Shown here: one piece after another, positions 17,940 through 61,376 of the stretch
Numbering within the stretch: the stretch's first letter is position 1
Layout: every line of letters begins with the position of its first letter
Origin: Vicugna vicugna
Taxonomy: Eukaryota
Direction of reading: 5' to 3'
NCBI GenBank assembly: GCA_013265495.1
Contig: MU057398.1
Coordinates: forward strand, 124,001-188,000
Length of the DNA: 64,000 nucleotides
The notes under the pieces: generated by a model
Database searches by the model: none
What the model was told of the DNA's origin: nothing
What the model saw: only the letters and a program-made list of their open reading frames with translations
Translations under genes and position numbers: made by a program

Positions 17940-20900
17940 AAGGGAAGGGTTACAGTTCTGGGTAAGATGGAGAGAGCACATGCCACCTTCCTGAACACCC
18001 ACTGACACCCACTGCTCAGAGCGGACAGGAAGCATGTGGCTGGTGTCTGCAGTCTCCGAAAGGTAAATGTCAGCAGGTGTGTCAGGGAGGTCAGAATCCA
18101 AGGGCACCATTCAGATTGGTGGGGACGTACCACATTCTCTCCTCTGGTCTCCCCAGGCCTGTGCTCAGGCCAGCCCAGGCCCAGAGAGAGTACGGGGCAC
18201 ACACGGAGAGCTCCAGGAGGAGAAAACCCTAGCACTTAGAGAGACTGGAAAAGTCCCTGGCCTCTTTCTCTCTCTTTTCTCTGTTCTCTCAGACCCCAGA
18301 CCCCAGGCAATGTCGGGGTGGCAGCAGCACATAGGCAGCCTGGCAACAGAAAATTACAGCAGCCAACACTCTGAGGGCAGAGAAGCGTCCTCTCCACTCA
18401 GTGGAGCTATGGGCCAAACGCTGTTACTGTTTCTTCCTCTCTGTCCTCCCACCGCTGTGGTGCAATCATGGCTGGAAGACAGAAAAGGAGAGCCCCATTC
18501 CCCAAGAACCAGATAATATTAGAGATGACTAGGAGGGAATAACTCGGGAAACTGAACTCATCAATCTGTCTGAGAACGCGCCCCCCACCCCATGCAGGGC
18601 TGGGTCTGACCTTGATGAGCATGCTGGGGCTCTGATCACTAAGCCAGTGGGGAGACCAGCACCCAGGCCCCAGGCTGAATGCTGGGTCACGTATGCAGCA
18701 GCGCAAAGGCTGTGGGAACTGAGCAGACACTGGAACCATGGGCCAGAGAAGTGGGCTGAATGTGCAGCTTAAACCTAACCAGGTTAAGTGCCTGCTAAAA
18801 CACAAATATCAACATTCTCCATAAAATCTAATGAGACTCGAAGTCAAAGTAATAGTCAAAATGTCTAGGACACAATCTAAAATTACTTGGCACATGAAGA
18901 AAACCATAAAAATCCCAACTTGAATGAGAAAACAGTCAACAGACACCAATGACAAGACGGTACAGATGCTGGAACTACATGGCAAACGTAAAGCAGCCAT
19001 TAGAAAAATGCTGACTAAGCAGTCATAGACACCACTGAGACCGAAGCTGGAAGAGAAAGCAGCAGCAAAGAGACAGAAATGTGTTGTGTTTTTTAAACCA
19101 CATAGACACTTAAAACAGAAAAATAGAGTAACTGAAATAAAAACTCACTGATGGAGCGAATCAACAGCAGAATGGAGGAGAGAGAGGAAAGAGTCAGTGA
19201 ACTTGAAAACAGATTAACAGAAACTATCCAATATGAGCAACAGTGAGGAAAAAAAGTTGAAAAACATTAACAGCCTCATGGACCTGTGGTACAACAATAA
19301 AAGGCCTAATATGTGTGTCATAGGAGGCCCAAATGGAGAGGACAAAAGCATGTAGACTGAAAAAGTATTTTAAGGAATAACAGCTGAAAACCTCCCAAGT
19401 TTGGTGAATGACACAAACTTACAGATTCGAGAAGCTGAGCAAATCCAAACAGGACAAAACCAAAAAAACTGTCCCACAAATACATAATTAAATTGCTGGA
19501 AACTAATGACAAAGAAAAAAATTTAAGTAGCAGAAGAAAAATAATACATGACTCATAGGAGGAAAATGACTCAAATGACTGCAGATTTCTCATCAGAACC
19601 TGTGAAGAAAGAACTGCCAACACAGAATTCTATATCCAGTGAAAATATCCACCAAGAATGAAGGAGAACTAGACATACTCAAATAAATGAAATCTAAGAG
19701 AATTTGGACACAGCAGACCACTTCAAAAAAAGAATTGCTAAAGGCAGTTCTTTAGACAGAAGTGAAATGATATCAGAAGGAAACCTAGAACACCAATGAA
19801 GGAAAAACAGAAAAAAGGACAAAACCACATGATCATGGCAGCAGATGCAGAGAAAGCATTTACAAAATTCAATACTCTTTCATGATAAAAACACTTAATC
19901 CAGGAATAGAAAGGAACACCCTCAACTTGATAAAGGGCATCTATAAAAAACCCACAGCTAACATCATACTCAGTGGTGAAGATCCATGTCTTCCCCCTAA
20001 GACCAGGGACAAGATAAGGATGCCCATTCTTGCCACTACTATTCATCACTGTACTGATGTGTTAGCCACAGAAATTAGGCAAGAAAAAGAAATAAAAAGA
20101 ATCTAAATTGGAAAGGCAGATGTAAAACTATCTCTATTTGCAGATGACACAATCTTGTATACAGAAAATCCTAAGAAATGCATTAAAAACTACTAGAACT
20201 AATAAACGAGGTGGCAGGATACAAGAGCAATGTGCAAAAATCAACTGTATTTCCATACACTAGCAATGAACAATATAAAAATAAAATTAAGAAAACACTG
20301 CCATTTACAATGGCATCATAAAGAGTGAAATACTTAGGAATAAATTTAACAAAAGAAGTACAAGACTTGTACATAGAAAGTTACAAAGTATCTTTGAAAT
20401 AAATTAAAGAAAACCTAAATTAATGGAAAGACTGCCCGTGTTCATGGACAGAAAGACTTAATACAGTTGGTGACAATACTCCTCAAAGTGATCTACAGAT
20501 TCGACACAATCTCCATTAAAATCCCAGTTGGCTTTTTTGCAGAAATTGACAAGCTGATTCTAAAATTCACACGGAAATTCAAGGGACCCCTAATAGCCAA
20601 AACAATCTTAAAAAAAGAGCAAAGTTGGAGGATTCACATGCCATGATTTACTACAAAGCAACAGTAATCAAGGCAGTGTGGTACTGGCCTAAGGACAGAC
20701 ATACAGATCAATGGAACAGAATGGAGAATCCAGAAATAAACCTTCGCATTTACACTAACTGATGTTCAACAAGGATGCCAAGACAATCCAATGAGGAAAG
20801 AATGGTCTTTTCATAAACGGTGCTGGGAAAACTGGACAGCCACATGCAAAAGAATGAAGTTGGGTACATCCCTTATACCATATAAAAAACCTAACTCAAA

Positions 20901-21660
20901 ATAGACCAAAGATCTAACTACAAGAGCTAAAACTATAAAACTCTTAGAAGAAAACACAGGTGCCAATCTTAATGACTTTAGATTTGGTGATAGATTCTTA
21001 AATATGACACCAAAAGCACAAGCAACAAAAGAAAAACAGATAAATTGGATTTCACCAAAACTAAAAACTTTTGTGCTCCAAAGGACACATCAGGAAAGTA
21101 AAAAGACAATCTGCAAAATGGGAGGAAGTATTTGTAAATCAAATATCTGATGTGACTTCTATCCAGAATATATAAAGAATTCTTATAACTCAATAATAAA
21201 AAGACAAATAGCCCAATCAGAAAGTGGGCAAAAGAATTGGACAGAAACATGTCTCCAAAGAAGACGTACAAATGGCCGATGAGCACAGGAAAAGACGTTC
21301 AACATCGTTAGTCATCAGGGAAATGCAAATCAAAACCACAGTGAGACAGCCCTTCAGATCCATGACGATGGCTAGCAGCAAAAAGATGGACAGTAACACG
21401 TGTCGGTCATGATGTCAGACCCTGGCACCCTCCTCACACACCGCGGGTGAGAATGTAAAATGGTGCAGCCACTTTGGAAAGCAGTTTGGTGGTTCCTCAA
21501 AAAGTTAAACATATTCAAAAAAATTCAAAAAGTTTAACAATTCCACTCCTAGCCATATACCCTAGAGAACTGAAAACATGTCTTTGGTCAAACACGTATA
21601 CAGGAAGATTCACAGCAGCATTATTTCTAATAGCCAAAATGTGGAAATAATTATTTCAAA
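17940..21660 (+). mobile_element. Degenerate LINE-1 (5' region, ORF1, internal deletion, ORF2 RT to C-terminus), antisense in HAUS7 intron 4
   Basis: A-rich; ORF2-like peptides IKGIYKKPTANIIL, LATEIRQEKEIK, LFADD (about 20136-20150), REMQIKTT; many stops and frameshifts. Confidence 0.9.
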
Positions 21661-21789
21661 TTTTTTTTAATTTTAAGGGTATGTGGCAGGGTTTCTTTGA
21701 CTGATGTGGGGGTGGACTGGGGCCATCTCTGTATAGAAACCCAGAGTGGGCAGCAGATGGGGAAAGTGTATAGGATCGGGAGCCAGAGG

Positions 21790-21945
21790 CCTGCGATGGA
21801 GGCCAGGCTCTGTCACTGGGTAACCTTGAGTGAGCTGTCTGTCACCTTCCCCATGAAATGGAGCCAAGACAAGTACCTACTGCCAAGGGTAGGTGTGACA
21901 ATTACCGGCATGTAAAGTACTTACCACAGTGTTGGTGTGTATGAT
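21790..21945 (+). mobile_element. MIR SINE fragment
   Basis: ccaggctctgtcactgggtaaccttgagtgag...atgtaaagtacttaccacagt, MIR core-like. Confidence 0.55.
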
Positions 21946-22223
21946 GTCATCCACCGAGGACAGGATGTGTTCTCTGTTCCTTTGGTCATGATAAGCCAGA
22001 GGTCCTCCTTGGCCTCCTCAGCCACCCTCCCCTCTTGTCCCTAGGGATGGCTGGGATCTACCCAAGGGAATTCTATGGGTTCCTGCCCCAGGGAGCTAAG
22101 AAGCAGAGACTGGGGATGATACCTCCTGGACCTGAGGAGCAAAGGCCTGGGGAAAGAAAGCCCCTGCGTGCCCACTGCAGCCTTACTGAGACCCCCATGG
22201 GGACAGAGAGGGTCCTCTCTTAC

Positions 22224-28849: not shown

Positions 28850-30110
28850 GCCCCTCTCACGCGTTTACTGCTGCCACGCCGCCACCAGGCTTGTGACACA
28901 TGCTCCCCTCCCGCAGCGTGTGCGCCCGGCACCCGGGCGGCGCTCTCCATCCCACCCAGAGTTCCATTCCCCTCAGCTCCGCCTCCTCTAAGTACGCCCC
29001 CTCTGGGCTCACGCAGCAGTTTGACCTCGTAGCAACTAGGGGCTTTAGTGACGTTCCGATCCATGCTCGGGGAAAGGGGAGGGAGAGGGACGATCGCGGA
29101 GGGAGGAGGCGGGGGTGAGGGGGACAAGGGGAAAGGGCGGGACAGGGCAGGCGGGATCAGGGACCTGGGACAGATACCCGACGAGCAGGGGCGGGTCTCC
29201 TCACTCCGGCCCCCACCGGCATCTGCCATGGACCCCGCGCGTGTCTCTCCCCCGGAACCCCGCGAGCTCGCTGAGGCGAGGGCCTGTGCCCTCCTGTCTC
29301 CATACCCGCTTTGCGCGCCCGGCCGGGTCCAGCCGAGTTCCGTGCCACAGAGACTAAGGCGCGGGCCCTAACTACCAGTCCCGGGCCGTGGAGACAGCAA
29401 GAGTGAAGGCCCGGGGCCGCCCAAGGAGCAGAGATGGAAGCCCCACAGCCTCCCCTCTGCAGCCGCCACAGAGGCCGCCCGCCTGGCGCCGCCGACTTCC
29501 GCATCAGGCCCTGCCCGCCCCCGCCGCCCGGCCCCCGCCGCCCTGGGGTGGCTCCTCGGCCCCTCGGCACCTTCAGCTTCGTGAACACCTCCACGGCCGC
29601 CTTGAACACGCTGTCGTCGTCCTGACCCTCGTTGCCTCCGCCGCCGCAGCCAGCACCTAGCCCCGCCATGTTTCGCGCTCACAGTCGCACCCCGCCCACG
29701 CCCCGTGCTGACTGGCCGGCCCGGCTGCCAATCAAGCGCAAGCCCCGCGCTCCTCCCACCTGCGCCGGGGCGGGAGCGGGGACCAGAACCAGCGCGCGCA
29801 CAGCTGCAACCAACCCCCTCCCCCACTGAGCCTTCCTATTGGGCCGCGACTCCGCCCGCGCCTCGGCCCCGCCCGGGAGGCTGAGCTCAAGGAAGGGGGC
29901 GGAGCCGAGGTTGGCTGCTGGGTCCCTAGCGGGCTCACGTCTCCCCCGCTGACCCGGGCGGAGGACGCGTCAAGAGGAGCGTCCTCCAGAAGAGGGCGCT
30001 CCTGACTTAGTTGGTTTCTCTGCGGGACGATAAAGGGGAACCTTGGGGACAGGACGAAACTGGGACTTGAGCGTCCGGTCTCCCAGCGCGGGGCTTCGTC
30101 TTTGGTTTCC
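28850..30110. promoter_or_regulatory. CpG-island promoter of HAUS7 (E2F site 29671-29678, CCAAT 29728-29732 and 29838-29842, GC box near 29897, CTCF-like 29986-29999)
   Basis: Dense CpG; motifs TTTCGCGC, CCAAT/ATTGG, GGGCGG, CCAGAAGAGGGCGC read directly. Confidence 0.85.
29571..29669 (-). CDS. HAUS7: HAUS7 (HAUS augmin-like complex subunit 7) coding exon 1: MAGLGAGCGGGGNEGQDDDSVFKAAVEVFTKLK; full gene 7487-29669, 387 aa as assembled
   Basis: ATG in CpG island, donor AAG|GTGCCG; the 10 exons sum to 1164 nt with consistent phases. Confidence 0.93.
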
Positions 30111-36112: not shown

Positions 36113-39100
36113 GAATCTATTCTCCAATTCTCCCTTGATGGGAGGAGGGCTCTCAGCTATGCAGTTATAAGGCGCTTTGAGGGATGAAGGGCATGGCTTC
36201 GGCATCCTCCAGGCTGCCAGTTTGAGTCCTGACTCGTGAGGGGCTGTGTGTTCTTGGGGGCAAGATGTGTGGAGAGTGGCCCATGTGGAAGGGGAGGACA
36301 GAAGGAGAAGGGGCAGGAGTCCCTTCCTTGCCCTCAGAATCCTGGGATTGTGCAGCTGGAAGCAACCATGATCGTCTAATGGTGCTTCTCTAGGCCCCTT
36401 CCAGTTCTCAGGTTCTAGAACTTTCTAAGGAGCCCTTATCCACCACATTGCGATGGGGAGACCAAGGCCCTGAGAGGGGAGGCTTACTACTGACATCACA
36501 TGGTCTGTCTGTCCAGGGCAGAGCTGGGAGCCCAAAAGCCTTCCAGCAACCCCCAGGCTACATCTCTGGTTCCTGGAAAATCCCGACACCCCTCCCACCC
36601 TGTGCTCCAGACACCAGGCTCAGGGTTAGTGTTGGCCAGGGGCCCTGCCTGTCTCAGCCCAAGTCCACGAGTAAGCTCCGTGTGCAAGAGGGGCGGGTGT
36701 GGGAGGGCACCTCTGGTTCTGCTGAGCCCACGACAAGCTGGCTCTGCTCTGTGGGGGTTCTTTCAAGGTCCCCACGATGGCCGAGCACCCTGAAACTGGA
36801 CACAGTAGGTGGCCAGGTGGCCGCTGGCCCCCAGTGGGGGAAGGGCAGTGATGACTGGACTCCACAGGACCTGGGGAGCTAAGAGTGCCCCAGGCCTCGC
36901 CCCTTCCTGCTTAGGTGGGTCGGAGCGAGGGTCCCTCCCTCCTCCAGGCCACTGTGCCAGAGAAACCTGGGAGCAGGCTTCCCCTCACCCCCAGCTCAGC
37001 TAATGGGAACCAGATGACAGGATGTTTAGTCAGCGCCTGGGGAGCGGCGCGAACAGGGGAAATGGGTTGGGGGCCAGAATTCCAGAATCCATCCCCAGGC
37101 AGGGGGAGGGTTAGAGCTGGGGCTCCCACCACAGTTGTCTCTAGGGACCCACTTCAGGCGGGGTCCTACCCCCTCCTCCAGGGATGCCTGGACCAGGAGG
37201 CAGGAGACAGGAGACAGGAGGCCTGGCCTCTGGCATCTGCCTCAGGCCAGCCCTACCCCCTCTCAGTTCCTTCCCTGTCCTGGGGGCGGGGGTTTGTTCT
37301 CAGTCTTCCAGAATCCCTGGGCAAACCCCAGCCTCCCGTGCCTAAGTGCTCCCCCGCTCCCAGCTTGGCAAACCATTAGCCCAGGCCATCCTGTGTCACC
37401 CAAGGGCACACGGGCATATGGCGGATATATCCTTGGCTCCCAGGGTACTTGCTCACGCTCACTTTGCAGACCATCGCTGTCTGTGTGTGGCACAGTCCCA
37501 AATTCAGGCTTAAACCGGAGCACTGGACAAGACAGAGGAGGGGACTGCCAGTGGACCCTGTGTGGCTCACGTGGGACTGTTAGCTGGCACGGAGGCTCCG
37601 GGAAGGCGGTGACTCCTGTGTCTCTGCTGTACCCCAGGCGCAGTACATCTGATACTCGGGACTAAGGCTGTTCCCCGGGCCCAAGTGGGTCAATGCTGAG
37701 GACTCTGACAAAGACCTGCTTGAGGGGTACTCTGTGCCCTACCCCCACGCCCTTACACACTCCTCTGTGGCCCCAAACAGAGACCTTGAACCCCAGGTGG
37801 CTATGGGAAACTCCTCCACAGTCCTTCCTGGCCCTGCTCCCCCCCCACTTTCCCCTCCACCCAAGCCTTGCCCACAATTAACTCATTTTTTAAGATCGCT
37901 TCCAAACATAAGTCAATGCTGGACAGAGCTGTAGGAAAAGCTTCCTCAAGGCTGGCCCCAAAGAGCCATGTGGTGAGACCCGGCCTCCTTGCCAGTCCCC
38001 GCCTGCCCTCGGCTCCCACAGCTGGGTCTGGGGCTGGGGCCATCTGAGGGCGGGCCCAGGGGCCTGTGGTCAGACACCCCTTCTTTGCCTCTTGCTCCAG
38101 CCCACGGCCCTGCTCTTGAGCCCTCTCCTGACCCACAGGTGCCTCTCGGCCAGAGAGGGCGCGCGTGAGGCGTAGGGAAGCAATGACACTGGTCACTCCA
38201 AGACCTGGAACTCTCTGCCGAGAAGCCTGGAGGGAACTGTGAGATGGCCTCCGCCAGGCTACTACTGCCAGGCCACTCCAGGCCAGTGGTCCCTGAAGAA
38301 CCCGGCAGTCCCAATGCACACACACTCCAGTGTGAGGTGGGGACATAGCAGGGGTGGGAGTCAGCGGGATGTATACCCGCTCACCATTTTAGAGGGGAAA
38401 GTGGAGGCCTGGAGGGAAGGTAGGGAGCCAGTAGAAGGATCCAGAGCTGAACTGCCTACTCCAGCCCCATCTGAGGCAGGAGGTCCATACCCAGGTGGCA
38501 CTGGGGCCCCAAGGGCTGGGGTCTCTGCTTGACACATGTTCTGTTTCTTCTGGAGTAGGGAGGCCTCGGCACTGGCGCCCACAGAGGAAGCCCACAGGCT
38601 TGGCAGGTTCCAGGGGAGCCAGCGCCGCCATTGTCCGGGTGGCCCTGTCACCTGTCCCTTCTCCCAAGGACCCAGGAGGCTCTGGGGCCTGCTGCTGGCG
38701 AGGCCTGGCCCCTCTCCTCTCCCGGCCGTGGAGGTAGGACCTGGCAGCCTGGGGTGGGCAGCCTGCTCTGTGGTGGGCCTCACAGGTCCACTGTGTGTGG
38801 AGACAGAAGCCCCATTCATGGGGGCCACTGGGCCAGGGCCAGTGGAGAATAAACGCAGGCCTCACAGAAAAAACGAGAGCTCTTGGGTCCAAGAAAAAAA
38901 TCAGTCTCTCTTTCTCCTCAGGTGGGAGCAGGGGACTTTGAGCGGAGTCAGGGGCAAGGCCTGGGGAGGTATTTGTTGGAGGGGAGCCTTCCTGAGGGAG
39001 GGCTGGGTGGGTGGCGGAGGCTCCCAGCGCTGCAGCTCAGGGAGCAGGGCTGTCGCTCCCTCAGCCCGCTGGTGTTCCATCCTGCCGCTGTGGCTCCCAC

Positions 39101-39154
39101 CTCTCCCAGCTATTCACCCCCTCCGCCAGCCCAGGCAGCCTGCACACAGCGGCC

Positions 39155-39321
39155 ATGAAGAGTGTGCTGCTCCCCGTCCTGGCTCTCTGGGTGGGGTGCT
39201 GCCCTGGAGGGGCCCTGGCCAAGCAGGGGCTGAGCCTGAGAGACCCCAGGCCCCGGCCATCCTCCTCGGGTTTGCCCACCCTGCAGCCGCCGCCGCCCAG
39301 CCCGCCGGGCCCCCCCCCATG
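39155..39321 (+). CDS. ECMX: ECM2-like gene coding exon 1: signal peptide MKSVLLPVLALWVGCCPGGALA plus Pro-rich stretch; gene spans 39155-46702
   Basis: gccATG; hydrophobic N-terminus ending in A-L-A; strong donor ATG|GTGAGT; phase 2 as assembled, with a C9 run at 39310-39318. Confidence 0.75.
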
Positions 39322-40572
39322 GTGAGTAGGTTGCACCAGCAGGAAGAGGCTGGTGGGAGGGGAACAGCCTGGGGCTGGGCCAGAGGGAGAGAAAGCTGGT
39401 CATCCTGAGGCTGCCCACCGATACCCATGTCGGTTGCTCAGGTCAGGGCTGGGAGGGATCCACAGGCCTCAGGGAACCCTTTCCAGAGGGTGAGGGGGTA
39501 TTGCAGACTCGGAGGCTTCGTGCTCATTGCCTAGGGTAGGAGCAGGGGAGGGGAGAAGCTCCCCTAGGAGGGGCTGCCTCAGCTGGGGCTGGAAGAACAG
39601 ATCCAGGTTTGCTGGCTGCCCTAAGGCCTACTGAGGGGACCCAGAGATGCGTGGGAGACCGGAAGTCGGGGCCTGGGGCTGCGGTTGGGTGAGGTGGCAC
39701 AAGTGGCTCCAGGAGAATGGCTACAGGGTCACCCTGGTCTCAAATGCCTTTGGTTAACAGCATGCATGGTGGCCCCGCCCCAGGCCCAGGGTTGGAGTGG
39801 GAGGGGCCAGTGGGTGGGCCTGGGTGAGGTGATCCCCCACCCGCTGCAGACAGCAGGACCTGCAGGGAAGGCCCACCGTTAGTGCTGATTGAGGAAGGGT
39901 ACCATGCAGAGGAGGCCAGGCCCTGGAGCTATCACCCCTCCTTGGCCGTTGCTGACAGCCCCTCAAGGTGACCCCTGGGCTCAACTCGACCCCAGTAGCC
40001 TCATCTCCCTGCAGGCACTGGGGCTTCCACCTCCAAAAGCAAACTGTGCCAGGTGGCAGGGACCCCTTCGTCTCCCCAGAGGCTTCCCCAACCCCTTCCT
40101 GCCCAGGAAGAATACACCGGGGACTGGGAGGCACAGGAGCAGGCCCAGCCCCCTCCATCTAGGGCCACTGAAGCGCTCCTGGACCCACCCTTGTGAACCA
40201 GGAACCTGCCTGTGCCCTGTCACAATGAGCCTAGAAGGTCCCCAGAAGTTCTGAGAGGCAAGCAGGGTGACTCCGCATGCTTCTGGCATTGAGCAGCCCC
40301 CTGTTCTCCCTTTCTGGCGCTCGGGGTCTCCCACTCTGGAGCCATGAAAAAGCAGGGCAGAGACCAGGGACTCTCTGACACTTGGTGACCTCAGGGGTCA
40401 GTAACAGAAGGCTCCTGAGGAGAGAAGAAAGAGGCAGAAGTGAGGTCTGGGCAAAGAGGCAAGGAGGGAGGTGGGCCAGCCTACGGCTGATCCCCCCACT
40501 CAGGATGGAGGTGCTGTCTTTTAGCCGTGAGGGGATCCCAGTCACCCCAGCCCACATTGGCTCCTTCTGCAG

Positions 40573-40998
40573 GTCAAGTTCGGCCCATCCCCGAGAGCGA
40601 CGGCCCGGACAAGCCTGAGGACAGGCAGCTGGACGGATCACAGTCGCAGCTCACCTCCAAGGAGGGAGTCCACAGAGCCCCCACCCGGTTCCCAGCCCCC
40701 AGTTGGAAGGCCCCTGCCAGGCCAAGGCTGGCCCAGAGGAAGGCGACACCATCAGCTGCCTGGGAGCAGGAGTGGGGTCCCAACAACAGGCCAGGCACCG
40801 TGCAGGTTGATCCCCAGGCCACAGCAGCACCTGGGGCTGGGGCAGCGAGGCCCAAAGCTGCCAAGCTCAGGCCCTTGCAGACCAGCAGGGCTCCCCGAGC
40901 ACAGGAAGGGGCAGTGGCCACCAAGGAGGGCCATGACAGGAAGGCAGGAGGCTGGGAAGCCAGGGAAAGGGGCCCAAAGCCCGGGAGGCCCCCCAAAG
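40573..40998 (+). CDS. ECMX: ECM2-like gene coding exon 2: Pro/Arg/Ala-rich linker QVRPIPESDGPDK...RPPK
   Basis: Acceptor ctccttctgcag, donor AAG|GTGAGG, 426 nt open, phase 1-1, joins exon 3 in frame. Confidence 0.55.
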
Positions 40999-41538
40999 GT
41001 GAGGACTGGCTGGGGCAGGCGGCCCCCAGATAGGGCCTGCAATGGGTAATGGGGCCATACTCGAGTCTGAAGGGGCCAAGGCGTGTGCCAACCTCCACCA
41101 GTCAGCAGCCACTGAGACCCCACCCTGCTCTCCATGTGCCCAGGCTGAGCACCCCCACGTGCCTGGCACGAGGGGAATCTTCAAGGATAGATCCCCTTCC
41201 CCCTGCTTAGGGTCCCAATTTGGACCTAGTCTTTGCTCTTGGTGCCAAAGGAAAGGGGTCAAACCCAGTGGCCTGTTGTTCCAGCTCAGCTGGCCGGGTC
41301 ACCAGCAGGTCCAGGGAGCCCAGGCAAGCCCCTGCCCCTCAGTGGGCTCCTGCTGCTACGTGACCAGGCTGGGGTCTCGGCTCTCGTCCCCCAGAGGCCT
41401 CCCACCAACCTGACCTGGGCAGCTGGCGTCAAAAGAAGGTTCAAAGCCAAGGCCAAGGTGGCAGCCACACCTCAGAGACTACAGGTCATGGACGGAAAAG
41501 GCCTGGAAGCAAGCGAGGACACAGCCATGGTTTTGCAG

Positions 41539-41679
41539 ACCTGGGCACTGCGGAACAGCCCACGCCGTCCCTGCCAGCCTCCTGCCTCCTGGCCCAGGCG
41601 GCCATTGCCTGTGGCAACGTCAAGATGAAGCATGTCCCTGCCCTGTCCGACCCCAGCCTGACCACGCTCTACTTGGCAG
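41539..41679 (+). CDS. ECMX: ECM2-like gene exon 3: LRR N-cap SLPASCLLAQAAIACGNVKMKHVPALSDPSLTTLYLA
   Basis: Acceptor ttttgcag (5' end less certain), donor CAG|GTGGGT; C-x8-C cap as in recalled ECM2. Confidence 0.85.
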
Positions 41680-41912
41680 GTGGGTGGCCCCTCTTCCCTG
41701 CACCCATTCCTGCAGCAGAGGTGAAAAGGCCCCCCTTGAGTGGGTCCTCGGCCACCCCACCGTGCCTGGGGATGGCTCACCTCCCATTGGGTCCAGGTTG
41801 GCAGTGAGAAGAGGCCCTGACCTGCTGCCCCTGGCCCATGTGGGGAAGTACAGAGTGACAGAGGGGAGGGGGATGGAGGGGCACGGAAAATGGCTTCCCC
41901 ATGTGTGCACAG

Positions 41913-42028
41913 AGAATGAAATTGCCAAGATCCCGGCCCACACGTTCCTGGGACTGCCCAATCTGGAGTGGCTGGACTTGAGCAAGAACAAGCTGGATGC
42001 CCGCGGCCTGCACCCTCATGCCTTCAAG
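41913..42028 (+). CDS. ECMX: ECM2-like gene exon 4: ENEIAKIPAHTFLGLPNLEWLDLSKNKLDARGLHPHAFK
   Basis: AG/GT, 116 nt, phase 1-0; LRR motif; resembles recalled ECM2 GLPNLERLDLSKN. Confidence 0.92.
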
Positions 42029-42420
42029 GTGCGCCCCAGGCCCTCCACCCCCCCTCTCCCAGGGGGCTGGGCCAGGAGCGGGGCCAGCAGTTCCCATGGT
42101 TCCAGGCAACCACTACTCCTCTCCCCACTCGGCCTGGGCGCTGTGCAGAAATCCAGCACGGGGCCAGGGGGCTGGGGGCTTCAACGATTTGGAGTGACAT
42201 GGTCTACAGCTGGGAACACAGGGAACAACACAGATCCTTGAGCCCCACAAGGGATCAGCACTCTTAGGAGAAACCGAGCGGAGTTCCAGAAACCCCCAGA
42301 CAGGCCTGGTCCAAGAGGGAACTAGGAAACCACGATGCTACTAAATGGAGGTGACCCTGGGCAGGATGAGCCTGGCCCCAGCCAGCAAAACCCCAGCCCC
42401 CAAAAAAACCGCCACTCCAG

Positions 42421-42553
42421 ACTCTGACCAGACTGAAGCGGCTGAACCTAGATGGGAACTCGCTGTCCACGGTGCCGGCCTTGCCCACCTCCTTGCAGGA
42501 GCTCAAACTCAATGACAACCTTCTGCAGGGCCTACAGAGCAGCAGTTTTCGGG
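42421..42553 (+). CDS. ECMX: ECM2-like gene exon 5: TLTRLKRLNLDGNSLSTVPALPTSLQELKLNDNLLQGLQSSSFR
   Basis: AG/GT, 133 nt, phase 0-1; two LRRs. Confidence 0.9.
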
Positions 42554-42764
42554 GTGCGGGCAGGCTCCGGGGGGCAGGGGCTGAAGGGGCTTGCCAGGGA
42601 AGCCAAGGAAAGGTGCGGGCGAGGGGAAGGTCTGCCCAGGGCAGCCAGGCTGGAGGGCAGAGGAGGGAGCATCTGCTCTGGGAAGTGGCACCGGCCTCTA
42701 GAGCCAGGGGGTCTCTGGAGCTCAGCAGGCAGCTCACGCGCCCCTCTGCCATCTGGCCCTGCAG

Positions 42765-42922
42765 GGCTCGGCCAGCTGCTGACGCTGGAGGTGGAAGGGA
42801 ACCAGCTGCATGACGGGGACATCTCCCCGCAGGCCTTCCAGCCCCTGCACAGCCTGCTCTACCTGAGGCTGGGACGGAACCAGCTGCGGACCATCCCTCC
42901 TGGCCTGCCAGCCTCCCTGCAG
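42765..42922 (+). CDS. ECMX: ECM2-like gene exon 6: GLGQLLTLEVEGNQLHDGDISPQAFQPLHSLLYLRLGRNQLRTIPPGLPASLQ
   Basis: AG/GT, 158 nt, phase 1-0; two LRRs. Confidence 0.92.
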
Positions 42923-43408
42923 GTGAGCTGGGAACCCCAAGGCCATGAGAGGCAATGCTGTGGCCGAAAGACCTGAGAATCTGCCACCACCGGCCCAGCA
43001 GGCAGGTAGAGCTACCCATGGGGTTGAGGTGGGGGTGGGGGTTGATGATAAACCCACAAGGCCTTAACTCCAAAGAGCCTTTCCTCTACCTGACCTAACC
43101 TTCTGGAAGCCCAAAATTAAGCCTCGAGGACTGTCCTGGACCTGCTGGATGTCCCTGAGCAAGGCCCATGCCCTCTCTGGGCCGCATGATCTCCCTGTGC
43201 TTGGCGGTGCTCCCTGAGGCTGTCTTGTGCCACTGGGATCCTTTGCACGGTCGGCCAGGGCCCTGAGAGGGGCAGAGACGGTGGCATCTGAAGTCCCACG
43301 GGTGAGACCTAGTAGAAAGGGGCAGGGAGCGGGACTAGGCAGAGCAGGAACCCAGCCAGGCCACGAGTGAGTAGAGGGTGGGCCCCTCACCCCAAGCCCT
43401 GGCCCTAG

Positions 43409-43548
43409 GAGCTGCACTTGGGCACCAACGTCATCGAGGAGGTGACAGAGGGCGCACTGAACCGTAGCCACAGCCTCAGCGTGCTGGTACTCAGTAACAA
43501 CCGGCTCCAGGAGGACCAGCTGGCACCCCGCGCTTGGATCAATCTTCC
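43409..43548 (+). CDS. ECMX: ECM2-like gene exon 7: ELHLGTNVIEEVTEGALNRSHSLSVLVLSNNRLQEDQLAPRAWINL
   Basis: AG/GT, 140 nt, phase 0-2; LRRs and an N-glycosylation sequon NRS; missed by the ORF track. Confidence 0.92.
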
Positions 43549-43966
43549 GTGAGTGCCGCCATCCACCCTGGCCTGGCCTGGCCTGAGCTTCACCCACTCG
43601 GGCACTTGGAGTCCAGAAAGGGAGGATGCTCCTCAGGGAAGCCAGAGAGTCAGGAGCAAGGGCAGAGAGGGCTGGGAGAGGGGGCTCTGCTGCCTAGGCC
43701 TGGCCTCTGGTGGCCTGGGCCCTCAGACACCACTTGTTCCTTCAAGGTTTCCCTCTGTCCCTCCTGCCAGACAGAATCCCCAAGGCCACAGAAACCCCCT
43801 CCCCTGCCATGCCTGGATTTGCCCTGCAGGCAGCCAGGAAGCTCCTCTTGGATTGCTTAGATGGAGGGGCAGCCTGAGTGGTGAGAGCTGGCCCCGTGCT
43901 AGGTTTAGCTAGGAAGCAACAGGGGCAGGAATGGACATGGGGGAGATGGCGGCCGTGGGAAAGACA

Positions 43967-44409
43967 TATGTGAGTTTCCTGGGGCAGAGGTAACAAAGCA
44001 CCATGAAGAGGGCAGCTTAAAACAACAGAGATTTATTTTCTCACAGTTCTGGTGGCCAGAGGTCCAAAATCAAGGTGTCCCAGGGCCATGGTCCCTCTGC
44101 AGGCTCTAGGGGAGAGTCCTTCCTGCCTCTTCCAGCTTCTGGTGGCTCCAAGTGTCCCCGGGCTTGTGGCTGCATCCCTCCTGTCTCTGCCCTTGTCTTC
44201 ATGTGGCTTCCCCTCTGTGTCTGTGTCTCTCCTCTTCTGTCTCTTATAAAGACTCTTGTCTTTGCATTACTGCCCACCCCAAACCAGGATGATATCATTT
44301 CAAGATCCTTCACTTACTTACGTCTACAAAGACCTTTTTGCCAAATGAGGTCACATTCACAGGTTCTGGGTAGACATATCCTTGGGGCGCCGCTATTCAC
44401 CCCACTACA
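43967..44409 (-). mobile_element. MLT1-type MaLR solo LTR in ECM2-like intron 7
   Basis: gcttaaaacaacagagatttattttctcacagttctgg...ccaaaatcaaggtgtc...gaggtcacattcacaggttctggg...cccactaca. Confidence 0.88.
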
Positions 44410-45662
44410 GGAAGGGTCCAGGATGAGTCTCCATGATCTGGTTTGGACAGCTAAGTCGGGGCACTGACAGAAGGGGTCCAGGAGGAAACAGGGCCCTTGC
44501 AGGCACTGCCTAAGGAGTCAGGATGTGATCCTGGGAGCAGCGGGAGGGCTGGGGAGGTACAATCCATGGGGTCTCAAGATCACTGAGGCGGGGTAGGGGT
44601 GGGGCTGCAGGGGGAGTCAGGGGTTGACAGTCTGACCTGCCATTCCAGGGACCAGAGTCTCCCGCCCTGCATCCTAGTGTTCCAGGAAAAAGTTACCAGG
44701 ACGTTTGGGTTTAATTATTCTTTTTTCCTCTCCCCCTCTTGCCAAGGGGGCAAAGGAAAGCAGACGGCAGCCTAGGGAGGGGCCCGCCCAGCCGCTGTTC
44801 CACTCTCGCCGCGGGGCCTGGGCAGGGGGCTGGCGGCCAGTCAAGGCCTAGCCGGGCGGCGCCTCACTTTTCTCTGGCTGGTGGATGGGGAGGGGGCTGC
44901 TGACTTGGCAGGCTTGGGAGGCACCAGAGCCCCCACTCCTGTGGACTGAGGACGGTGTGAACCCCAAAGCCAAAGGGCTGACCCACTCACAGGGGTAGGG
45001 ATGTTAATGAGAGAAGCCACTTTCCCGGCTCTGACTTGTTCTGGAAGCACCACCACCATCTGCTCCCAGTTCCCTCTGCCCAGCCCCTGCCCACGCCCAC
45101 CATGCAGCAACCTGGGTTCACGGCCGGCCTCCCTCAGGGTCCCCCAGCCCTGATCCCCGGGAGCTTCATTTTCTTCTCCCTCCTCGTCTGGTTTCAACTT
45201 GTCTTCGGCCTGGGTGAGGCAGGAAGAGGACGAGGGAGTAGGGGCAAGAGCAGAGGATTGTGAGGCCAGGAAGGGCAGAGCGGAGGCAGGCCTGGGTGGG
45301 GCAGCCAGGGACAGCTCTCTCCCCGGACCACAGCCTCTTTCCTCGTGCTTCTTTTGTCAGCTGTGAGTTTAGGAGGGAGAGAAAGGAGTGGGAGCGGGTC
45401 TGCCATGTCCACACCGAGGGCCAGCCTCATTAGCCTTGTGGTGAGAAAGAGAGGCCACCCTAGATCCCCTCTTCCCAGCCTCAGCAGACAGAGGAGGACA
45501 CAGAAGCCAGACAGGGCCTGACCCTTGTCAGCTCGTGGGAGCCCTGGTGGCCACTCTCTTCTCCGATGTGGACCAGGGACTCCAATTTAGGGCTCCAGCT
45601 GTGGCTGTGGTCCCTGTCAGGCGCCATGAGCTCACCCTGTGCTCGTGCGCCCCGGCCCACAG

Positions 45663-45989
45663 GAAGCTGGAGGCCCTCGACCTGTCCCACAACCAACTGG
45701 TGTACGTGCCCTCCTTCCTGCCCCGGGGCCTCCGCCACCTGACGCTGCACCACAACTGCATCGAGCGCATCCCTGGCTACGTGTTTGCGCACATGAAGCC
45801 GGGCCTGGAGCGCCTACACCTGTCTCACAACAGCCTGCGCGCCGATGGCATCCACGATGTGTCCTTCCTGGGCCTGCGAGCCTCCCTGGCCGAGCTGCTG
45901 CTGGACCATAACCAGCTGCAGGCCATCCCTCGAGGCCTCCTGGGCCTCAGGGCGCTGCAGGTGTTGCGCCTGAGTCACAACAAGACCAG
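45663..45989 (+). CDS. ECMX: ECM2-like gene exon 8: KLEALDLSHNQLVYVPSFLPRGLRHLTLHHNCIERIPGYVFAHMKPGLERLHLSHN...LQVLRLSHNKT
   Basis: AG/GT, 327 nt, phase 2-2; five LRRs; IPGYVFxHMxPGLE resembles recalled ECM2. Confidence 0.93.
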
Positions 45990-46509
45990 GTAGGGTCACC
46001 CACCTGCCTCCCCCAACCCCAGCCCCATCCCCACCACTGGCCGGGGAGGAAACGCAGCCAAGGCCCAGAGGCCTGGCCTGGTATGTGGGCCAGGTGGGCT
46101 AGCCGGTGGGCTCGTCACCCAAGAGCCTCAGAGGCTGAGGGCGGGGCTGTGGGGGTACCCCTTCACCACCCGCATCTACCCATCCTGGTGGCCATGTTGG
46201 GAGGCTGTGCCCAGTGGCTGGCAGGCCTGGGCAGCCAAGGTGGAGGGCTGCAGACAGCAGAATCTGGGCAGGGGGTGGGCAGGGGGGAGATGGGAGGGCT
46301 CTGGCCCAGAGCAACAAGGGCTGAGCCCTGAGTGCAGAGGTGGCAGGTGGTGGCAGCAACCCTCCAGACCCTCCACCCTGGGTCTGGTATCTGCACCTTG
46401 GTCTCACCACCCACTCACTGTCAGGCCCTCTCTTTCTCTTACATGATGCTTGATTCCTCTTTCTGGAGTCTTGGCTCCTTTGCTCCGCCCTGCCACCCCC
46501 ACTCCACAG

Positions 46510-46702
46510 ACATGTGCCCCTGAATTCCATCTGTGACACACGCGTGGCCCAGGACTCCAACCTCATCTCCACGCACCTGGAGAACAACCTTATCGACCGG
46601 CGCCACATCCCCCCCAATGCCTTCTCCTGCATCCGGGCCTACCACAGTGTGGTCCTACAGCACCAGCAGGGGGAGGAGGAGGGGGAGGCAGAGGGTGCCT
46701 AG
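46510..46702 (+). CDS. ECMX: ECM2-like gene last exon: HVPLNSICDTRVAQDSNLISTHLENNLIDRRHIPPNAFSCIRAYHSVVLQHQQGEEEGEAEGA*
   Basis: Phase 2 acceptor; SLRP C-terminal Cys pair; resembles recalled ECM2 end (DSNLEHLHLENN...FSCIRSYSSIVL); TAG 46700-46702. Confidence 0.92.
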
Positions 46703-46913
46703 CCCCCAAAAGCCAACCTTCCCCACCCCCTGTTCCTTGGGGACTGGTAGGGGGAGGAGGGCCCAAGCTCAGCTCCATTTGATCTTTGCATCACTGGGAG
46801 AAAGATCTAGAAGACCCTGCTGCTTCAGATGTGCCTACATCCCACTGACTGCTGAGATCCCTTCACTTAGTAAATGACCCAGCCGGATGTGGTGCTGGTT
46901 TGGACTTGAGCAT

Positions 46914-46919
46914 AATAAA
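46914..46919 (+). terminator. PolyA signal AATAAA of the ECM2-like gene
   Basis: AATAAA about 210 nt after the stop. Confidence 0.7.
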
Positions 46920-49900
46920 TGCATCTCATTCAAGTCCACTCACCTCCTCTAGCCTCCTGCCCTCCCTCCTGGATCTAAACTGCCTGTACGTGCTGGCATT
47001 CTCTTGTGCATGGAGCCCCCAGAGCCCACATCCTGGATACTGCTTCGTCAGCAGGAGTTTAAGAAGGCCTGCTTCTAGAAGCTTCTCCAAGAGTCTCCAC
47101 AGCCCCACCTGCCCTGGCCAGGGTCCTGAAGTCTCCTGCAGCTCAGCCCCAAGCCATCTGGAGGCCAGGCTTGCCCTCATTGTTCAGGGCAGCATCAGTA
47201 CTCTCTCGTCCAGGAAGCGACCCTGTCCATGGAGTGGATGCATAGAGTGGGGCTTGGCTGGCAGAGAAGTTGATGTGAGCACCCCTGGTGCCTGCCCTTT
47301 GTCCTGGAGCCTCCCACACCTGCACCAACACCAGAGGCACCTTGCTCCTCCCTCTCCCCTATCCCAGGTCCCAGGGCTCTCATCCCGGTTCCACACCTCA
47401 ATCTCCCATACCAGCCCACAGGTCCCCAGGGCCCTACACACATCCCTCAGAGACAGTCACAGGGGTCCAAGGATTTGGGACCTGGATGTACCCACGTGCA
47501 ACCTGGTGCCAGGGGAGGGTGAGGAGCAGCATCCTCTCAACAACTCCTGGGGCGCAAGTTCTTGATCTGCGGGAGGCCAGGTCTAGCCCTGGGGACCCAG
47601 GGGTGACCAACCCCTGGCTGGAGTTGCTGATTGTCCACCTGGTGGGGGAGGCAGCCACAGATACCAGCCAGCTATGAGCCTGGAGAGAGGACCCACAACT
47701 CTGCATGGTGGGGACCCAGGATCTGCAGAGCACCCTGAGGTCACTGGAACAATTGCCTTGCCTGTGTGACAGGGACCACCAGGAACAGGGTGGGTTACTA
47801 GGTCAGCCTTGGCAGCTGACAGTGCCCCGTGCCTAGTGCTACGGAGGGAGAGGGATGGGGGCAGGGGCCAAAACCAGCAGGAAGCACTGCGGGCTCAGCC
47901 CCCGCCCTGGGGAGTGGGGAGCTTATGGGGGTGTGGGGGGTCAGAGAGACAGCCAAGTGACTGGGTAGAGAATGCCGTGGAGCAGAACAGGCCCCAGCCT
48001 TCACCCAGCCTTCAGTGCTGCTGGATGTCTGTGGAGTGAAGGAGAAAAGGCAGCAAGTGCCATTGCAGAGACCTTGCCCTGCCAGGGCCTCGGGCTGGGG
48101 TCTGGGCCTGGGAACTGTGAGTTTCCCATCTGTCACACTCTGCAGCCAGCCCCCCGCCCCCCACCCTTGAGTTCTCAGCAGAGACCAGGCCAGACTCTGG
48201 CAGGGGGCGGGGAGAGGCCTGGGAAGCTGGCGGCCTGTTTGCTTTGGACTCATCCCTGCATTCCTTCTCCTCCCGCCCGGGGCCCACAGATCTGGCACTT
48301 CCTGTTTGGACTGGGTCAGAGGTCAGCAGCCTTGGAGGCACTGGCCCTGATGGGGAGGGCCCCTTGCTTTCCCAGCTCTCACGACCCCTCTTCCCCTGTC
48401 TGGATGCCTGGCCCCAGCCCTCCCGCTCCACTCTGGTCAGCCCCCAGCCCCCTCCTTCCCCGCAGTCGCAGAGTTCAGGCCCTAGGAGGCACAGGAAGTT
48501 CAGGCTGGACCACCTCCCCGCAGCGCTGCTCGCACCTCTCTACTGAGCAGATGGGGCCGGAAGGCCTCAGAGGAGAAGGGCCACACCCAAGGAACCACCG
48601 CCACTTGTCAGGGCCGCTTGTCAGGGCAACCTGGCCACGGGGTTGGGGCAGAGGAATGGAGGAGGGCAGGGTATGTAGGAGGCAGGCAGCCTAGGCAGTT
48701 CCCCGGGTGAATTCCACTGCAGACAGGGAGTCGCTGGGCTCTGGGGGCTGCTGTCAGGTGGCCTGAATCCAGGCAAGGGGGCCAATTCTTCTGTGATCTT
48801 CCTGAGACCCTAGTAGGTGTCTGCCAGTGAGCTCCCTGGAAGCTGACCCACCAGAGGCAAGGATGAGTGTGCAGGAAGTTTTCTGGGAGGCTCCTAGGGG
48901 AGGAGAGGACAAGAGCAGGAGTGGGCCCAGGGAGAAGCTGGCTTGTGACCGACAACACAGGCCCAGCCAAGGCCTCCAGGTGCTCTGGAGCTGAGCTGGT
49001 CCTGAGTTAGGACAAGGGGACTCAACCTTTCCATCCCCCTGTCATAGTTGGGTAGGGCTGCCCAGCAAAGGTGCCGTCACTAGGGCAAGTGCACTCTCTT
49101 CAGCCCAGGCAACTCCCCAAGAGGGCCGGGAGCTCAGGGCTGGGGTGCCAGCAGCTGGAGACCAGGGGCTTCAGTCCTAGCAGGGAGGTGGCTGTGGCAG
49201 CATGACGTGCCCCCAGGGGGAGGGGCGGGTCAGCAGCCCACCCAGGGACATCCCCAGACAGACCCCCGGCCAGGGGAGCGTGCGCAATGCAGTCAATGCC
49301 TGGTGGCAGGACCAAGGCCACCTGCTGTTCTGTGCCTGTCCCTCCTTCACCCACGCCCCAACCGTGTATCCTCTACTCACTCGTGCCTGCCTGGAGGTGG
49401 TCACTGTGCTCTCCAAGGCGGGGGCTGGCTCCGCAGGAGGGTATAGTGGTAGGCGTGGCCCAGTCAGGAACCCGGAAACACTGGGCATCTGATGGTTCAC
49501 TGTAGTGACTGTTGTGATGGTGGTGACAACACAGTAGGCTCAGGTGGCAAAAAGCGAGGCACTCATCAGTCACTGGATCCAGGTGGGGGTAGGACTGAGG
49601 GTAAGGACAGCGGGGACAGTGGAGACAAGGAGCAGATCACATAGGCTGGCAAGTGTGAGGAGCCGAGAACAGGGGCAGGAAGCAGTGGTGCACTCCTTCC
49701 AGGGACCTCGGCCCCCTCCCAGCCACAGTCCTCGACTCCTGCCTATTGGCCTCCAAATTCCTCTCCAACCCGCCTACTCCTCTCTGTCCACAGTGCCCCT
49801 ACCCAAGGACCCGCCACCCACTCCTTCGCCAGGCTTTCTGTCTAATGTACATCCGGTTCCAAACCTTCCTACTGCTTCATACCCCATGTTGTGGCCTCCA

Positions 49901-61248: not shown

Positions 61249-61376
61249 NNNNNNNNNNNNNNNNNNNNNNNNNNNNNNNNNNNNNNNNNNNNNNNNNNNN
61301 NNNNNNNNNNNNNNNNNNNNNNNNNNNNNNNNNNNNNNNNNNNNNNNNNNNNNNNNNNNNNNNNNNNNNNNNNNNN
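61249..61376. other. Assembly gap (128 N)
   Basis: Run of n characters. Confidence 1.

What the first reader, a model, noticed from the sequence alone, without database searches (positions are those of the whole stretch)
39155..46919. Nearly intact ECM2 paralogue (ECMX) upstream of BGN: candidate functional secreted LRR matrix protein
Seen: nine plus-strand exons with GT-AG ends. Exons 3-9 (41539-46702) splice in frame with no stop or frameshift. They encode a C-x8-C N-cap, about 13-14 LRRs and the SLRP C-terminal Cys pair, followed by a stop and AATAAA. Exon 1 encodes a signal peptide. Recalled knowledge: the peptides resemble ECM2, and the human locus here is annotated as the pseudogene ECMXP. 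Inference: about 1.2 kb of LRR coding sequence and its splice sites would be unlikely to stay clean without selection, so this species may encode a largely uncharacterised 599-aa extracellular matrix protein.
Basis: partly seen in the sequence, partly recalled or inferred. Interest (0 to 1): 0.85.

Follow-up and report, generated by a model that had tools for sequence, protein, structure and literature searches.

The report
Alpaca ECMX gene with early frameshift
This is the alpaca copy of ECMX, a little-studied but already described and annotated matrix-protein gene, complete except for one extra base near its start that may have switched it off.

Summary
The exons are real. All nine have AG/GT borders. 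Exons 2-9 form one open frame of 591 codons ending in TAG, with AATAAA 212 nt downstream. The product is a signal peptide, a disordered linker and a 15-repeat LRR solenoid with a C-x8-C cap and the SLRP "ear" Cys pair.

It is not new. ECMX was named in 2008 (PMC2637281). The window encodes letter for letter RefSeq XP_015106842.1, "extracellular matrix protein 2-like [Vicugna pacos]".

The open question is the reading frame. A 9-C run at the end of exon 1 carries one base more than camel, horse, cattle, hippo and elephant proteins require. The conserved ATG therefore stops after 70 codons. RefSeq restores the frame only with an extra 56-nt exon that has a GC donor.

The LRR domain has diverged between alpaca and camel almost as fast as the linker: ratio 0.87, against 0.14-0.27 in 11 other pairs. 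This suggests relaxed constraint but does not prove it.

Read evidence could not be obtained.

My odds:
- recently disabled: 0.45
- intact, with the C-run miscounted: 0.32
- rescued by splicing: 0.18

The parts
39155..39321 (+). Exon 1 (coding part). It holds the conserved ATG, the signal peptide MKSVLLPVLALWVGCC...ALA|KQG and a Pro-rich stretch. Its donor is ATG|gtgagt.
   Evidence: The N-terminus matches camel, horse, cattle and hippo proteins.
39310..39318 (+). Run of 9 C at the end of exon 1. It is one base longer than the orthologues' frame allows (P-P-D-G in camels and cattle, P-D-G or P-E-G in the others), so exon 1 ends in phase 2 instead of phase 1.
   Evidence: run located. (ATG frame stops at codon 71). 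(5 non-alpaca eutherian lineages read ...P[D/E]G|QV...).
40202..40257 (+). Optional 56-nt exon used only by the alpaca RefSeq model. Acceptor ccag|G, GC donor GAG|gcaagc. It restores the frame.
   Evidence: It is absent from camel models P0002 and P0003.
40573..40998 (+). Exon 2: 141 codons of Pro/Ala/Lys/Arg-rich linker with no Pfam domain. The RefSeq model leaves it early, at a weak donor after 40701.
   Evidence: pLDDT is below 50 in the part of the linker that P0001 contains.
41395..41679 (+). Exon 3, long form: the rest of the linker, the C-x8-C N-cap, LRR I and the start of LRR II.
   Evidence: both forms in frame. The long form is used by P0001, dromedary, horse, cattle, hippo and elephant; the short form by C. 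ferus P0002.
41913..42028 (+). Exon 4: LRR II-III.
   Evidence: LRR_8 E=2.8e-8.
42421..42553 (+). Exon 5: end of LRR III, LRR IV-V.
   Evidence: LRR_8 and LRR_1 hits.
42765..42922 (+). Exon 6: LRR V-VII.
   Evidence: LRR_8 E=1.9e-6.
43409..43548 (+). Exon 7: LRR VIII-IX.
   Evidence: LRR_8 E=1.1e-4.
45663..45989 (+). Exon 8: LRR IX-XIV. It includes the alpaca-specific changes H->Y, R->C and I->T.
   Evidence: LRR_8 E=4.1e-17. 100% identical to XP_015106842.1..
46510..46702 (+). Exon 9, coding part: the ear repeat XIV, LRR XV, the LRRCE Cys pair, an acidic tail and the TAG stop.
46914..46919 (+). AATAAA polyadenylation signal, 212 nt after the stop.

Best explanation
The locus is the alpaca (Vicugna pacos) orthologue of ECMX, the X-linked paralogue of ECM2. 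[quoted passage not shown]

Ancestrally, and apparently still in camels, horse and cattle, the gene makes a secreted protein. A cleaved signal peptide is followed by a roughly 200-residue disordered basic and Pro-rich linker. Then comes a curved solenoid of 15 LRRs, closed by a two-Cys N-cap and by the disulphide-bonded "ear" cap that defines canonical SLRPs. By homology with decorin and biglycan, it would bind collagen or growth factors in cartilage-type matrix. That step is inferred.

In this sequence the gene is whole except for one extra base in a 9-C run at the end of exon 1. With the conserved exon 1-exon 2 splice, translation from the conserved ATG ends 15 codons into exon 2. That leaves a 70-residue stub and a premature stop seven exon junctions upstream of the last exon, which should trigger nonsense-mediated decay (inferred).

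I lean to the view that the break is real and that the gene was disabled recently in the alpaca lineage, as a young counterpart of human ECMXP. The promoter, splice sites, poly(A) signal and the 591-codon downstream frame have not yet had time to decay.
For: Identity:
- The window encodes XP_015106842.1 exactly through 10 exons.
- The LRR region is 365/380 identical to both camel proteins, 345/380 to Equus and 298/380 to platypus.
- In an ML tree of 32 sequences the alpaca sits with the camels inside the artiodactyls. The same clade holds Anolis 'ecmx' and gar 'si:dkey-6n6.1'.
- All 15 repeats have the lengths of horse ECMX in Table 3 of PMC2637281.
- Best solved relatives are decorin (5e-36), osteomodulin, biglycan and fibromodulin by sequence. 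By fold they are biglycan, decorin and osteomodulin.

The break:
- The alpaca ATG frame follows the camel protein up to ...SPPGPP. It then reads P-W instead of D-G, and stops at codon 71.

Relaxed constraint (suggestive only):
- Of 15 alpaca-camel differences in 380 LRR residues, more are alpaca-derived than camel-derived with 26 of 27 outgroups, with 1 tie.
- The changes include I->T at a core LxxLxLxxNxL position that is I in 27 of 27 other mammals, T->N (26/27 T), D->N (26/27 D) and R->Q (25/27 R). R->C adds an unpaired Cys.
- The LRR/linker divergence ratio is 0.87 for alpaca-dromedary, against 0.14-0.27 in 11 other pairs.
- The per-branch ratio is 0.83 for alpaca, against 0.23 for the whole tree and 0.12 on the camelid stem.
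- 11 of 18 inferred changes fall in the LRR part, P=0.007 under the tree-wide ratio.

An intact downstream frame is compatible with a young pseudogene.
Against: - The break sits in a homopolymer. One C fewer would give an in-frame ...GPPHG|QVRP.
- Alpaca reference assemblies all come from one animal and incorporate 454 data (PMC6598621, passages). That 454 miscounts homopolymers is recalled knowledge.
- I could not lay any reads, so the count of 9 is unverified.
- All splice sites, the start context, the stop and the poly(A) signal are intact, and 1773 nt carry no stop or indel.
- The rate evidence is weak. Relative-rate tests reach p<0.05 with only 3 of 27 outgroups, and these tests are not independent.
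- Under a laxer null ratio of 0.40, the binomial P is 0.058.
- The dromedary branch, whose frame is intact, shows an equally high ratio of 1.15. Other short branches range from 0 to 2.0.
- The alpaca has 3 private changes at columns at least 90% conserved. Vulpes vulpes has 4 and Canis 3, so the alpaca is not an outlier by count alone.
- RefSeq once accepted a coding model here.
Confidence: 0.45

Rival explanations
1. The gene is intact and working. The ninth C is an assembly miscount, or a variant of the one reference animal. The true exon 1 ends ...GPPH|G and joins exon 2 directly. That gives a secreted ECMX of about 647 aa with the long exon 3, or 599 aa with the short exon 3.
For: - Everything except one base is intact: 8/8 AG acceptors, 8/8 GT donors, a 591-codon frame, stop and AATAAA.
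- The break lies in a 9-base homopolymer in GC-rich sequence (GC 0.65 in 38-40 kb).
- Alpaca assemblies share one donor and include 454 reads.
- Both camel species have the direct exon 1-exon 2 frame.
- The LRR fold is predicted with pLDDT above 90 over most of residues 180-500.
Against: - The same 9-C reading underlies the RefSeq protein and the window, although the two may not be independent.
- The alpaca branch shows about twice the camel's LRR change, and it hits near-invariant sites.
- No other alpaca protein containing exon 8 was found. One search listed one alpaca protein among its best 120 hits. One search found none identical among 19 hits.
Confidence: 0.32
2. The frameshift is real but is compensated by splicing. 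One route is the alpaca-specific 56-nt exon (40202-40257, GC-AG) used in XP_015106842.1. Another is an alternative exon-2 acceptor such as 40532. A secreted ECMX with an altered linker would then still be made.
For: - The 10-exon path through the 56-nt exon translates without a stop into the RefSeq protein.
- Its donor GAG|gcaagc resembles the usual GC-donor context (that context is recalled).
- Several other in-frame, stop-free acceptors exist. One example is 40532, which follows a ctgtctttt tract.
Against: - The extra exon is absent from both camel models.
- The same RefSeq model also leaves exon 2 at a very weak donor (CCA|gttgga). That looks like frame-fitting and not biology.
- In-frame AG sites are expected by chance: 8 of 11 candidates in 40400-40760 were stop-free.
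- There is no read support of any kind.
Confidence: 0.18
3. These are chance open frames, or a different LRR gene (ECM2 itself, or a processed copy), and not ECMX.
For: None found. The databases do name most orthologues 'extracellular matrix protein 2(-like)'.
Against: - The gene is interrupted by 8 introns, so it is not a processed copy.
- It has an exact RefSeq match.
- The tree follows the species phylogeny and includes Anolis 'ecmx'.
- Repeat-by-repeat it matches horse ECMX.
- It has no VWC domain, unlike ECM2-type architecture.
Confidence: 0.01

Closest known systems
ECMX (class A / class I SLRP; Park et al. 2008, PMC2637281), e.g. horse XP_001491563 and Equus quagga P0005
   Same: 15 LRRs with identical repeat lengths, the C-x8-C cap, and the LRRCE ear repeat with its Cys pair. 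The LRR region is 345/380 identical. Signal peptide and linker are in the same order.
   Different: The alpaca has one extra base at the end of exon 1, which breaks the frame. It carries lineage-specific replacements at near-invariant sites: I->T, T->N, D->N, R->Q and R->C. The NLT sequon of LRR III is lost in all three camelid proteins, and the alpaca gains an NKT sequon in LRR XIV.
Camel ECMX models XP_032330595.1 (C. ferus, P0002) and XP_064338936.1 (C. dromedarius, P0003)
   Same: 365/380 identity in the LRR region and 189/198 in the linker. The exon set is the same.
   Different: Camels read ...GPPDG|QVRP straight across exons 1 and 2, with no extra exon. The dromedary model adds an upstream piece that maps to 29668-29933 of the window.
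[quoted passage not shown]
   Same: The same gene in another mammal, where it is classed as a pseudogene yet still transcribed. It is up-regulated together with COMP and MATN3 in stroma-rich chordoma (table in PMC9529962). ESTs come from cartilage and chondrosarcoma (PMC2637281).
   Different: I did not see the human sequence, so I cannot compare the lesions. The alpaca copy has at most one disabling change.
ECM2
   Same: The paralogue with the same LRR plan. Databases name ECMX proteins after it.
   Different: Reviews describe ECM2 and ECMX as having an RGD motif and a vWF-like domain (PMC4859157). The alpaca product has no RGD. Alpaca, dromedary and Equus proteins have no VWC hit, whereas axolotl and coelacanth ECMX do (E 6.5e-11 and 1.3e-9). 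No mammalian ECM2 sequence was in hand for a direct tree.
Decorin and biglycan (PDB 1XKU/1XCD, 2FT3)
   Same: The best solved relatives by sequence (5e-36 and 2.9e-33) and by fold (E about 1e-14). They share the same cap types.
   Different: They have 12 LRRs and a 4-Cys N-cluster, and they carry GAG chains. ECMX has 15 LRRs, a 2-Cys cap and a long linker. Identity is 25-26% in the fold alignment.

Membership tests
Canonical SLRPs (LRRCE-bearing) | C-terminal LRRCE cap: a long penultimate 'ear' LRR, with one disulphide linking the last two LRRs | tested here: met
   LRR XIV is 29 residues with Cys in ...NSIC.... LRR XV is 27 residues with Cys in ...FSC.... The lengths equal those of horse ECMX. 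The disulphide itself is inferred.
Canonical SLRPs (LRRCE-bearing) | N-terminal Cys cap before LRR I (four Cys, CxnCxCxmC, in classes I-III) | tested here: not met
   Only two Cys are present, spaced C-x8-C. Horse and zebrafish ECMX show the same pattern in Table 3 of PMC2637281. This is therefore the ECMX pattern and not a defect. A cap beta-strand is predicted at residues 182-184 of P0001.
ECMX orthologue group | 15 LRRs following the 21-24-26 length pattern | tested here: met
   Repeat lengths are 21, 24, 26, 20, 24, 26, 21, 24, 26, 21, 25, 27, 23, 29, 27, with no indel. The model has 15 parallel strands.
ECMX orthologue group | Groups with named ECMX proteins and follows the species tree | tested here: met
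   ML tree of 32 sequences, with 1 of 33 dropped for gaps. A true mammalian ECM2 outgroup was not available. A 58%-identical Danionella protein served as root.
ECMX orthologue group | Lies directly upstream of BGN | not testable with these tools
   No BGN coding exon is in the window and no whole genome is held. The only synteny hint is a TREX2-like RNase_T ORF upstream, at 4181-5053 on the minus strand. The gene order TREX2-HAUS7-BGN is recalled.
Functional protein-coding gene | Uninterrupted frame from the conserved start codon through the conserved splice junctions | tested here: not met
   The ATG frame stops at codon 71 with the exon 1-exon 2 junction that the camel models use.
Functional protein-coding gene | Spliced transcripts and purifying selection on this branch | not testable with these tools
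No camelid DNA besides the window was available for dN/dS. Protein-level proxies are inconclusive.
Secreted protein | N-terminal signal peptide | tested here: met
   Hydrophobic core at residues 3-13 (mean hydropathy up to 2.43), followed by GALA|KQG. A helix is predicted at residues 6-13. No dedicated signal-peptide predictor was available.

The most novel reading that the evidence does not exclude
A real +1 frameshift at the end of exon 1 is compensated in the alpaca lineage by a newly recruited 56-nt GC-AG exon (40202-40257) or by a shifted exon-2 acceptor. An old matrix gene would then be kept alive by exonisation, with a rewritten linker, while humans lost the same gene.
Probability: 0.15. 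Interest if true: 0.45.

Novelty: already known. Interest (0 to 1): 0.18.

Why it matters
ECMX is the least studied SLRP. A 2026 paper reports that three databases held no ECMX data (PMC13249986, passages), and humans carry only a pseudogene. Knowing which mammals keep a working copy would show where its function can be studied.

The alpaca locus adds at most one more data point: a possible second, very young loss, or else a homopolymer error that current annotation has to work around. It opens no new biology. I found no paper that mentions ECMX together with alpaca (0 papers). Other searches were 'ECMX'+'ECM2' (14 papers), 'ECMXP' (2), 'extracellular matrix protein 2-like' (4) and 'ECMX'+'pseudogene' (3).

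Tried and rejected
- **Reads.** The look-up of sequencing runs listed 16 DNA runs holding 0.97-0.98 of the sampled words. Nothing was laid, so these shares are no evidence of expression or of the C count.
- **Spliced camelid transcripts among database ORFs.** Exon 2 at 'near' lengths gave 3 proteins at 60-65% identity. Exon 8 at 'near' lengths gave 19 proteins, the best at 92%. None was from alpaca.
- **Exact-match scan of metagenome contigs** with 31 nt flanking the C run: 0 hits.
- **Own genome:** none is held.
- **Earlier scan notes:** none for this genome, and nothing relevant by words.
- **Relative-rate tests.** The direction is consistent but mostly not significant, so I rejected them as proof.
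- **Count of private changes at conserved columns.** The alpaca is not an outlier.
- **Pfam scan of 95 long ORFs outside the gene.** 1 of 95 hit: RNase_T at 23.5 bits, just under the 24-bit cut-off.
- **Paper search** was badly framed (min_terms 2) and says nothing.
- **Supplements not opened.** These were Additional File 1 of PMC2637281 (ECMX accessions) and Supplementary Table 1 of PMC11917481 (species list). They may say which mammals keep ECMX.
Full report
**What is there**

I read 39000-47100 and rebuilt the gene in scripts. Nine plus-strand exons have AG acceptors and GT donors throughout:
- e1: 39155-39321
- e2: 40573-40998
- e4: 41913-42028
- e5: 42421-42553
- e6: 42765-42922
- e7: 43409-43548
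- e8: 45663-45989
- e9: 46510-46702

Exons 2-9 give one open frame of 591 codons ending in TAG. The short exon 3 is also in frame. AATAAA lies at 46914-46919. Pfam finds LRR families in 5 of the 9 exon peptides, exons 4-8. It finds nothing in exon 2, the short form of exon 3 or exon 9, and only noise in exon 1.

**What it is**

Exon 8 finds 372 proteins at E<=1e-10 among 1243 candidates. The top hit is 100% identical: "extracellular matrix protein 2-like [Vicugna pacos]", accession XP_015106842.1. The window encodes all 567 residues of that protein exactly through 10 exons, so the window is alpaca DNA and the locus is already in RefSeq.

The next hits are camels at 98%, then horse, cattle, deer, hippo, bats, elephant, marsupials and platypus. 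After those come reptiles, amphibians and fishes, including "uncharacterized protein ecmx [Anolis carolinensis]". An ML tree of the LRR region used 32 sequences, with 1 of 33 dropped for gaps. It follows the species tree and places the alpaca beside the camels.

Park et al. 2008 (PMC2637281; passages read) named this family ECMX. They placed it upstream of biglycan and predicted orthologues in horse, cattle, dog and others. They also tabulated the 15 repeats of horse ECMX. The alpaca product fits that table repeat for repeat with identical lengths, the C-x8-C cap and the ear-repeat Cys pair.

Later papers list ECMX among SLRPs and call it poorly studied (PMC4859157; PMC6293640; PMC11917481; PMC13249986; passages only in each).

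**Fold**

I folded P0001 with a 40-sequence alignment. Mean pLDDT was 74.8. Residues 14-172 fall below 50 and are taken as the disordered linker. Most of residues 180-500 are above 90. The model has a cap strand and 15 parallel strands.

The best solved matches by fold are biglycan, decorin and osteomodulin. By sequence they are decorin (5e-36), osteomodulin, biglycan and fibromodulin.

Mammalian ECMX lacks the VWC domain that axolotl and coelacanth ECMX carry. The alpaca product has no RGD.

**The break**

From the conserved ATG, the alpaca follows the camel protein as far as ...SPPGPP. Camels and cattle then read P-D-G|QVRP across the exon 1-exon 2 junction. Horse and elephant read P-D-G there, and hippo reads P-E-G. 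The alpaca has a run of 9 C at 39310-39318. It reads P-W, then 14 out-of-frame codons and a stop, giving 70 residues in all.

The frame is off by +1. With 8 C the junction would read ...GPPH-G|QVRP in frame.

The RefSeq model restores the frame with an extra 56-nt exon (40202-40257, GC donor) that no camel model has. It also leaves exon 2 at a very weak donor.

Other frame-restoring sites exist. Examples are an acceptor at 40532 and a weak donor after 39269. Such sites are expected by chance.

**Is it still under selection?**

No other camelid DNA was available, so I used proteins.

- *Direction of change.* In 380 LRR columns, alpaca and camel differ at 15. Against 27 outgroups the alpaca-derived share exceeds the camel-derived share in 26, with 1 tie. 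Only 3 of these non-independent tests reach p<0.05. Alpaca-derived changes hit near-invariant sites: I->T in the hydrophobic core of LRR XIV, T->N, D->N, R->Q and R->H. R->C adds an unpaired Cys.
- *LRR against linker.* The LRR/linker divergence ratio is 0.87 for alpaca-dromedary. It is 0.14-0.27 for 11 other pairs.
- *Per-branch estimates.* I fixed the topology from recalled phylogeny and estimated branch lengths separately for each partition. The ratios are 0.83 on the alpaca branch, 1.15 on the dromedary branch, 0.12 on the camelid stem and 0.23 overall. Other short branches range from 0 to 2.0.
- *Binomial test.* The probability of 11 of 18 alpaca changes falling in the LRR part is 0.007 under the tree-wide ratio. 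It is 0.058 under a laxer ratio.
- *Raw counts.* By count of private changes at conserved columns, the alpaca is not an outlier.

Together these results point to relaxed constraint in crown camelids, stronger in the alpaca, but they prove nothing.

The clean downstream frame excludes an old pseudogene, not a young one. P(clean) is 0.38, 0.15 and 0.02 at neutral divergence 0.005, 0.01 and 0.02. The indel ratio in that calculation is assumed.

**Could the 9 C be an error?**

Alpaca reference assemblies come from one female and include 454 and Sanger reads. The later versions are meta-assemblies of the earlier ones plus Illumina and PacBio data (PMC6598621, passages). Agreement between the window and the RefSeq protein is therefore not independent confirmation.

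Searches for alpaca ORFs in read-derived collections and in metagenomes found nothing.

**Surroundings**

- A 291-codon ORF at 4181-5053 on the minus strand has a marginal RNase_T match, which makes it TREX2-like.
- The only CpG-island-like kilobase is 29001-30000. The N-terminal extension of the dromedary model maps there.
- No biglycan coding exon lies in 47-64 kb.
- No genome is held for the window.

**Verdict**

This is a correct reading of a real gene, but the gene and its family are known and this copy is already annotated. Whether the alpaca still makes the protein hinges on one base. My odds are:
- recently disabled: 0.45
- intact, with the C run miscounted: 0.32
- rescued by alternative splicing: 0.18

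Interest is low.

Noticed in passing
window 4181-5053 (-): A 291-codon open frame matches RNase_T exonuclease over the whole profile (E 9.2e-5, 23.5 bits against a cut-off of 24). It looks like single-exon TREX2. That would fit the recalled human order TREX2-HAUS7-BGN.
   Followed up: no
window 29001-30000; 29668-29933: This is the only CpG-island-like kilobase of the window (GC 0.72, CpG o/e 0.78). The first 52 residues of dromedary model P0003 map here at 96% identity. It may be an upstream alternative first exon of ECMX, or a promoter shared with a minus-strand neighbour.
   Followed up: partly
P0042 residues 79-135, P0064 residues 80-134, against P0001, P0003, P0005: Axolotl and coelacanth ECMX carry a VWC domain. 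Alpaca, dromedary and Equus ECMX have none. In the precomputed Pfam column, no listed mammal or squamate has PF00093. Amniote ECMX seems to have lost the domain that reviews still ascribe to it.
   Followed up: partly
window 42421-42429 (LRR III) and 45979-45987 (LRR XIV): All three camelid proteins read K-T-L-T where 5 of 6 other mammals read K-N-L-T, so an N-glycosylation sequon is lost. The alpaca I->T change creates a new N-K-T sequon.
   Followed up: no
canid ECMX proteins P0051, P0059: The stem branch of dog plus fox is long in the LRR domain (0.129 substitutions per site, ratio to linker 0.39). Canid ECMX may also be evolving fast.
   Followed up: no
window 18001-22000: An AT-rich, strongly A-skewed block (GC 0.38-0.44, AT skew 0.24-0.33) sits inside otherwise GC-rich DNA. 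It is probably an inserted repeat such as a LINE.
   Followed up: no
window 61249-61376: A run of 128 N, which is an assembly gap.
   Followed up: no
window 40532: An AG acceptor 41 nt upstream of exon 2, behind a ctgtctttt tract, would also restore the frame after the 9-C exon 1, without a stop.
   Followed up: partly
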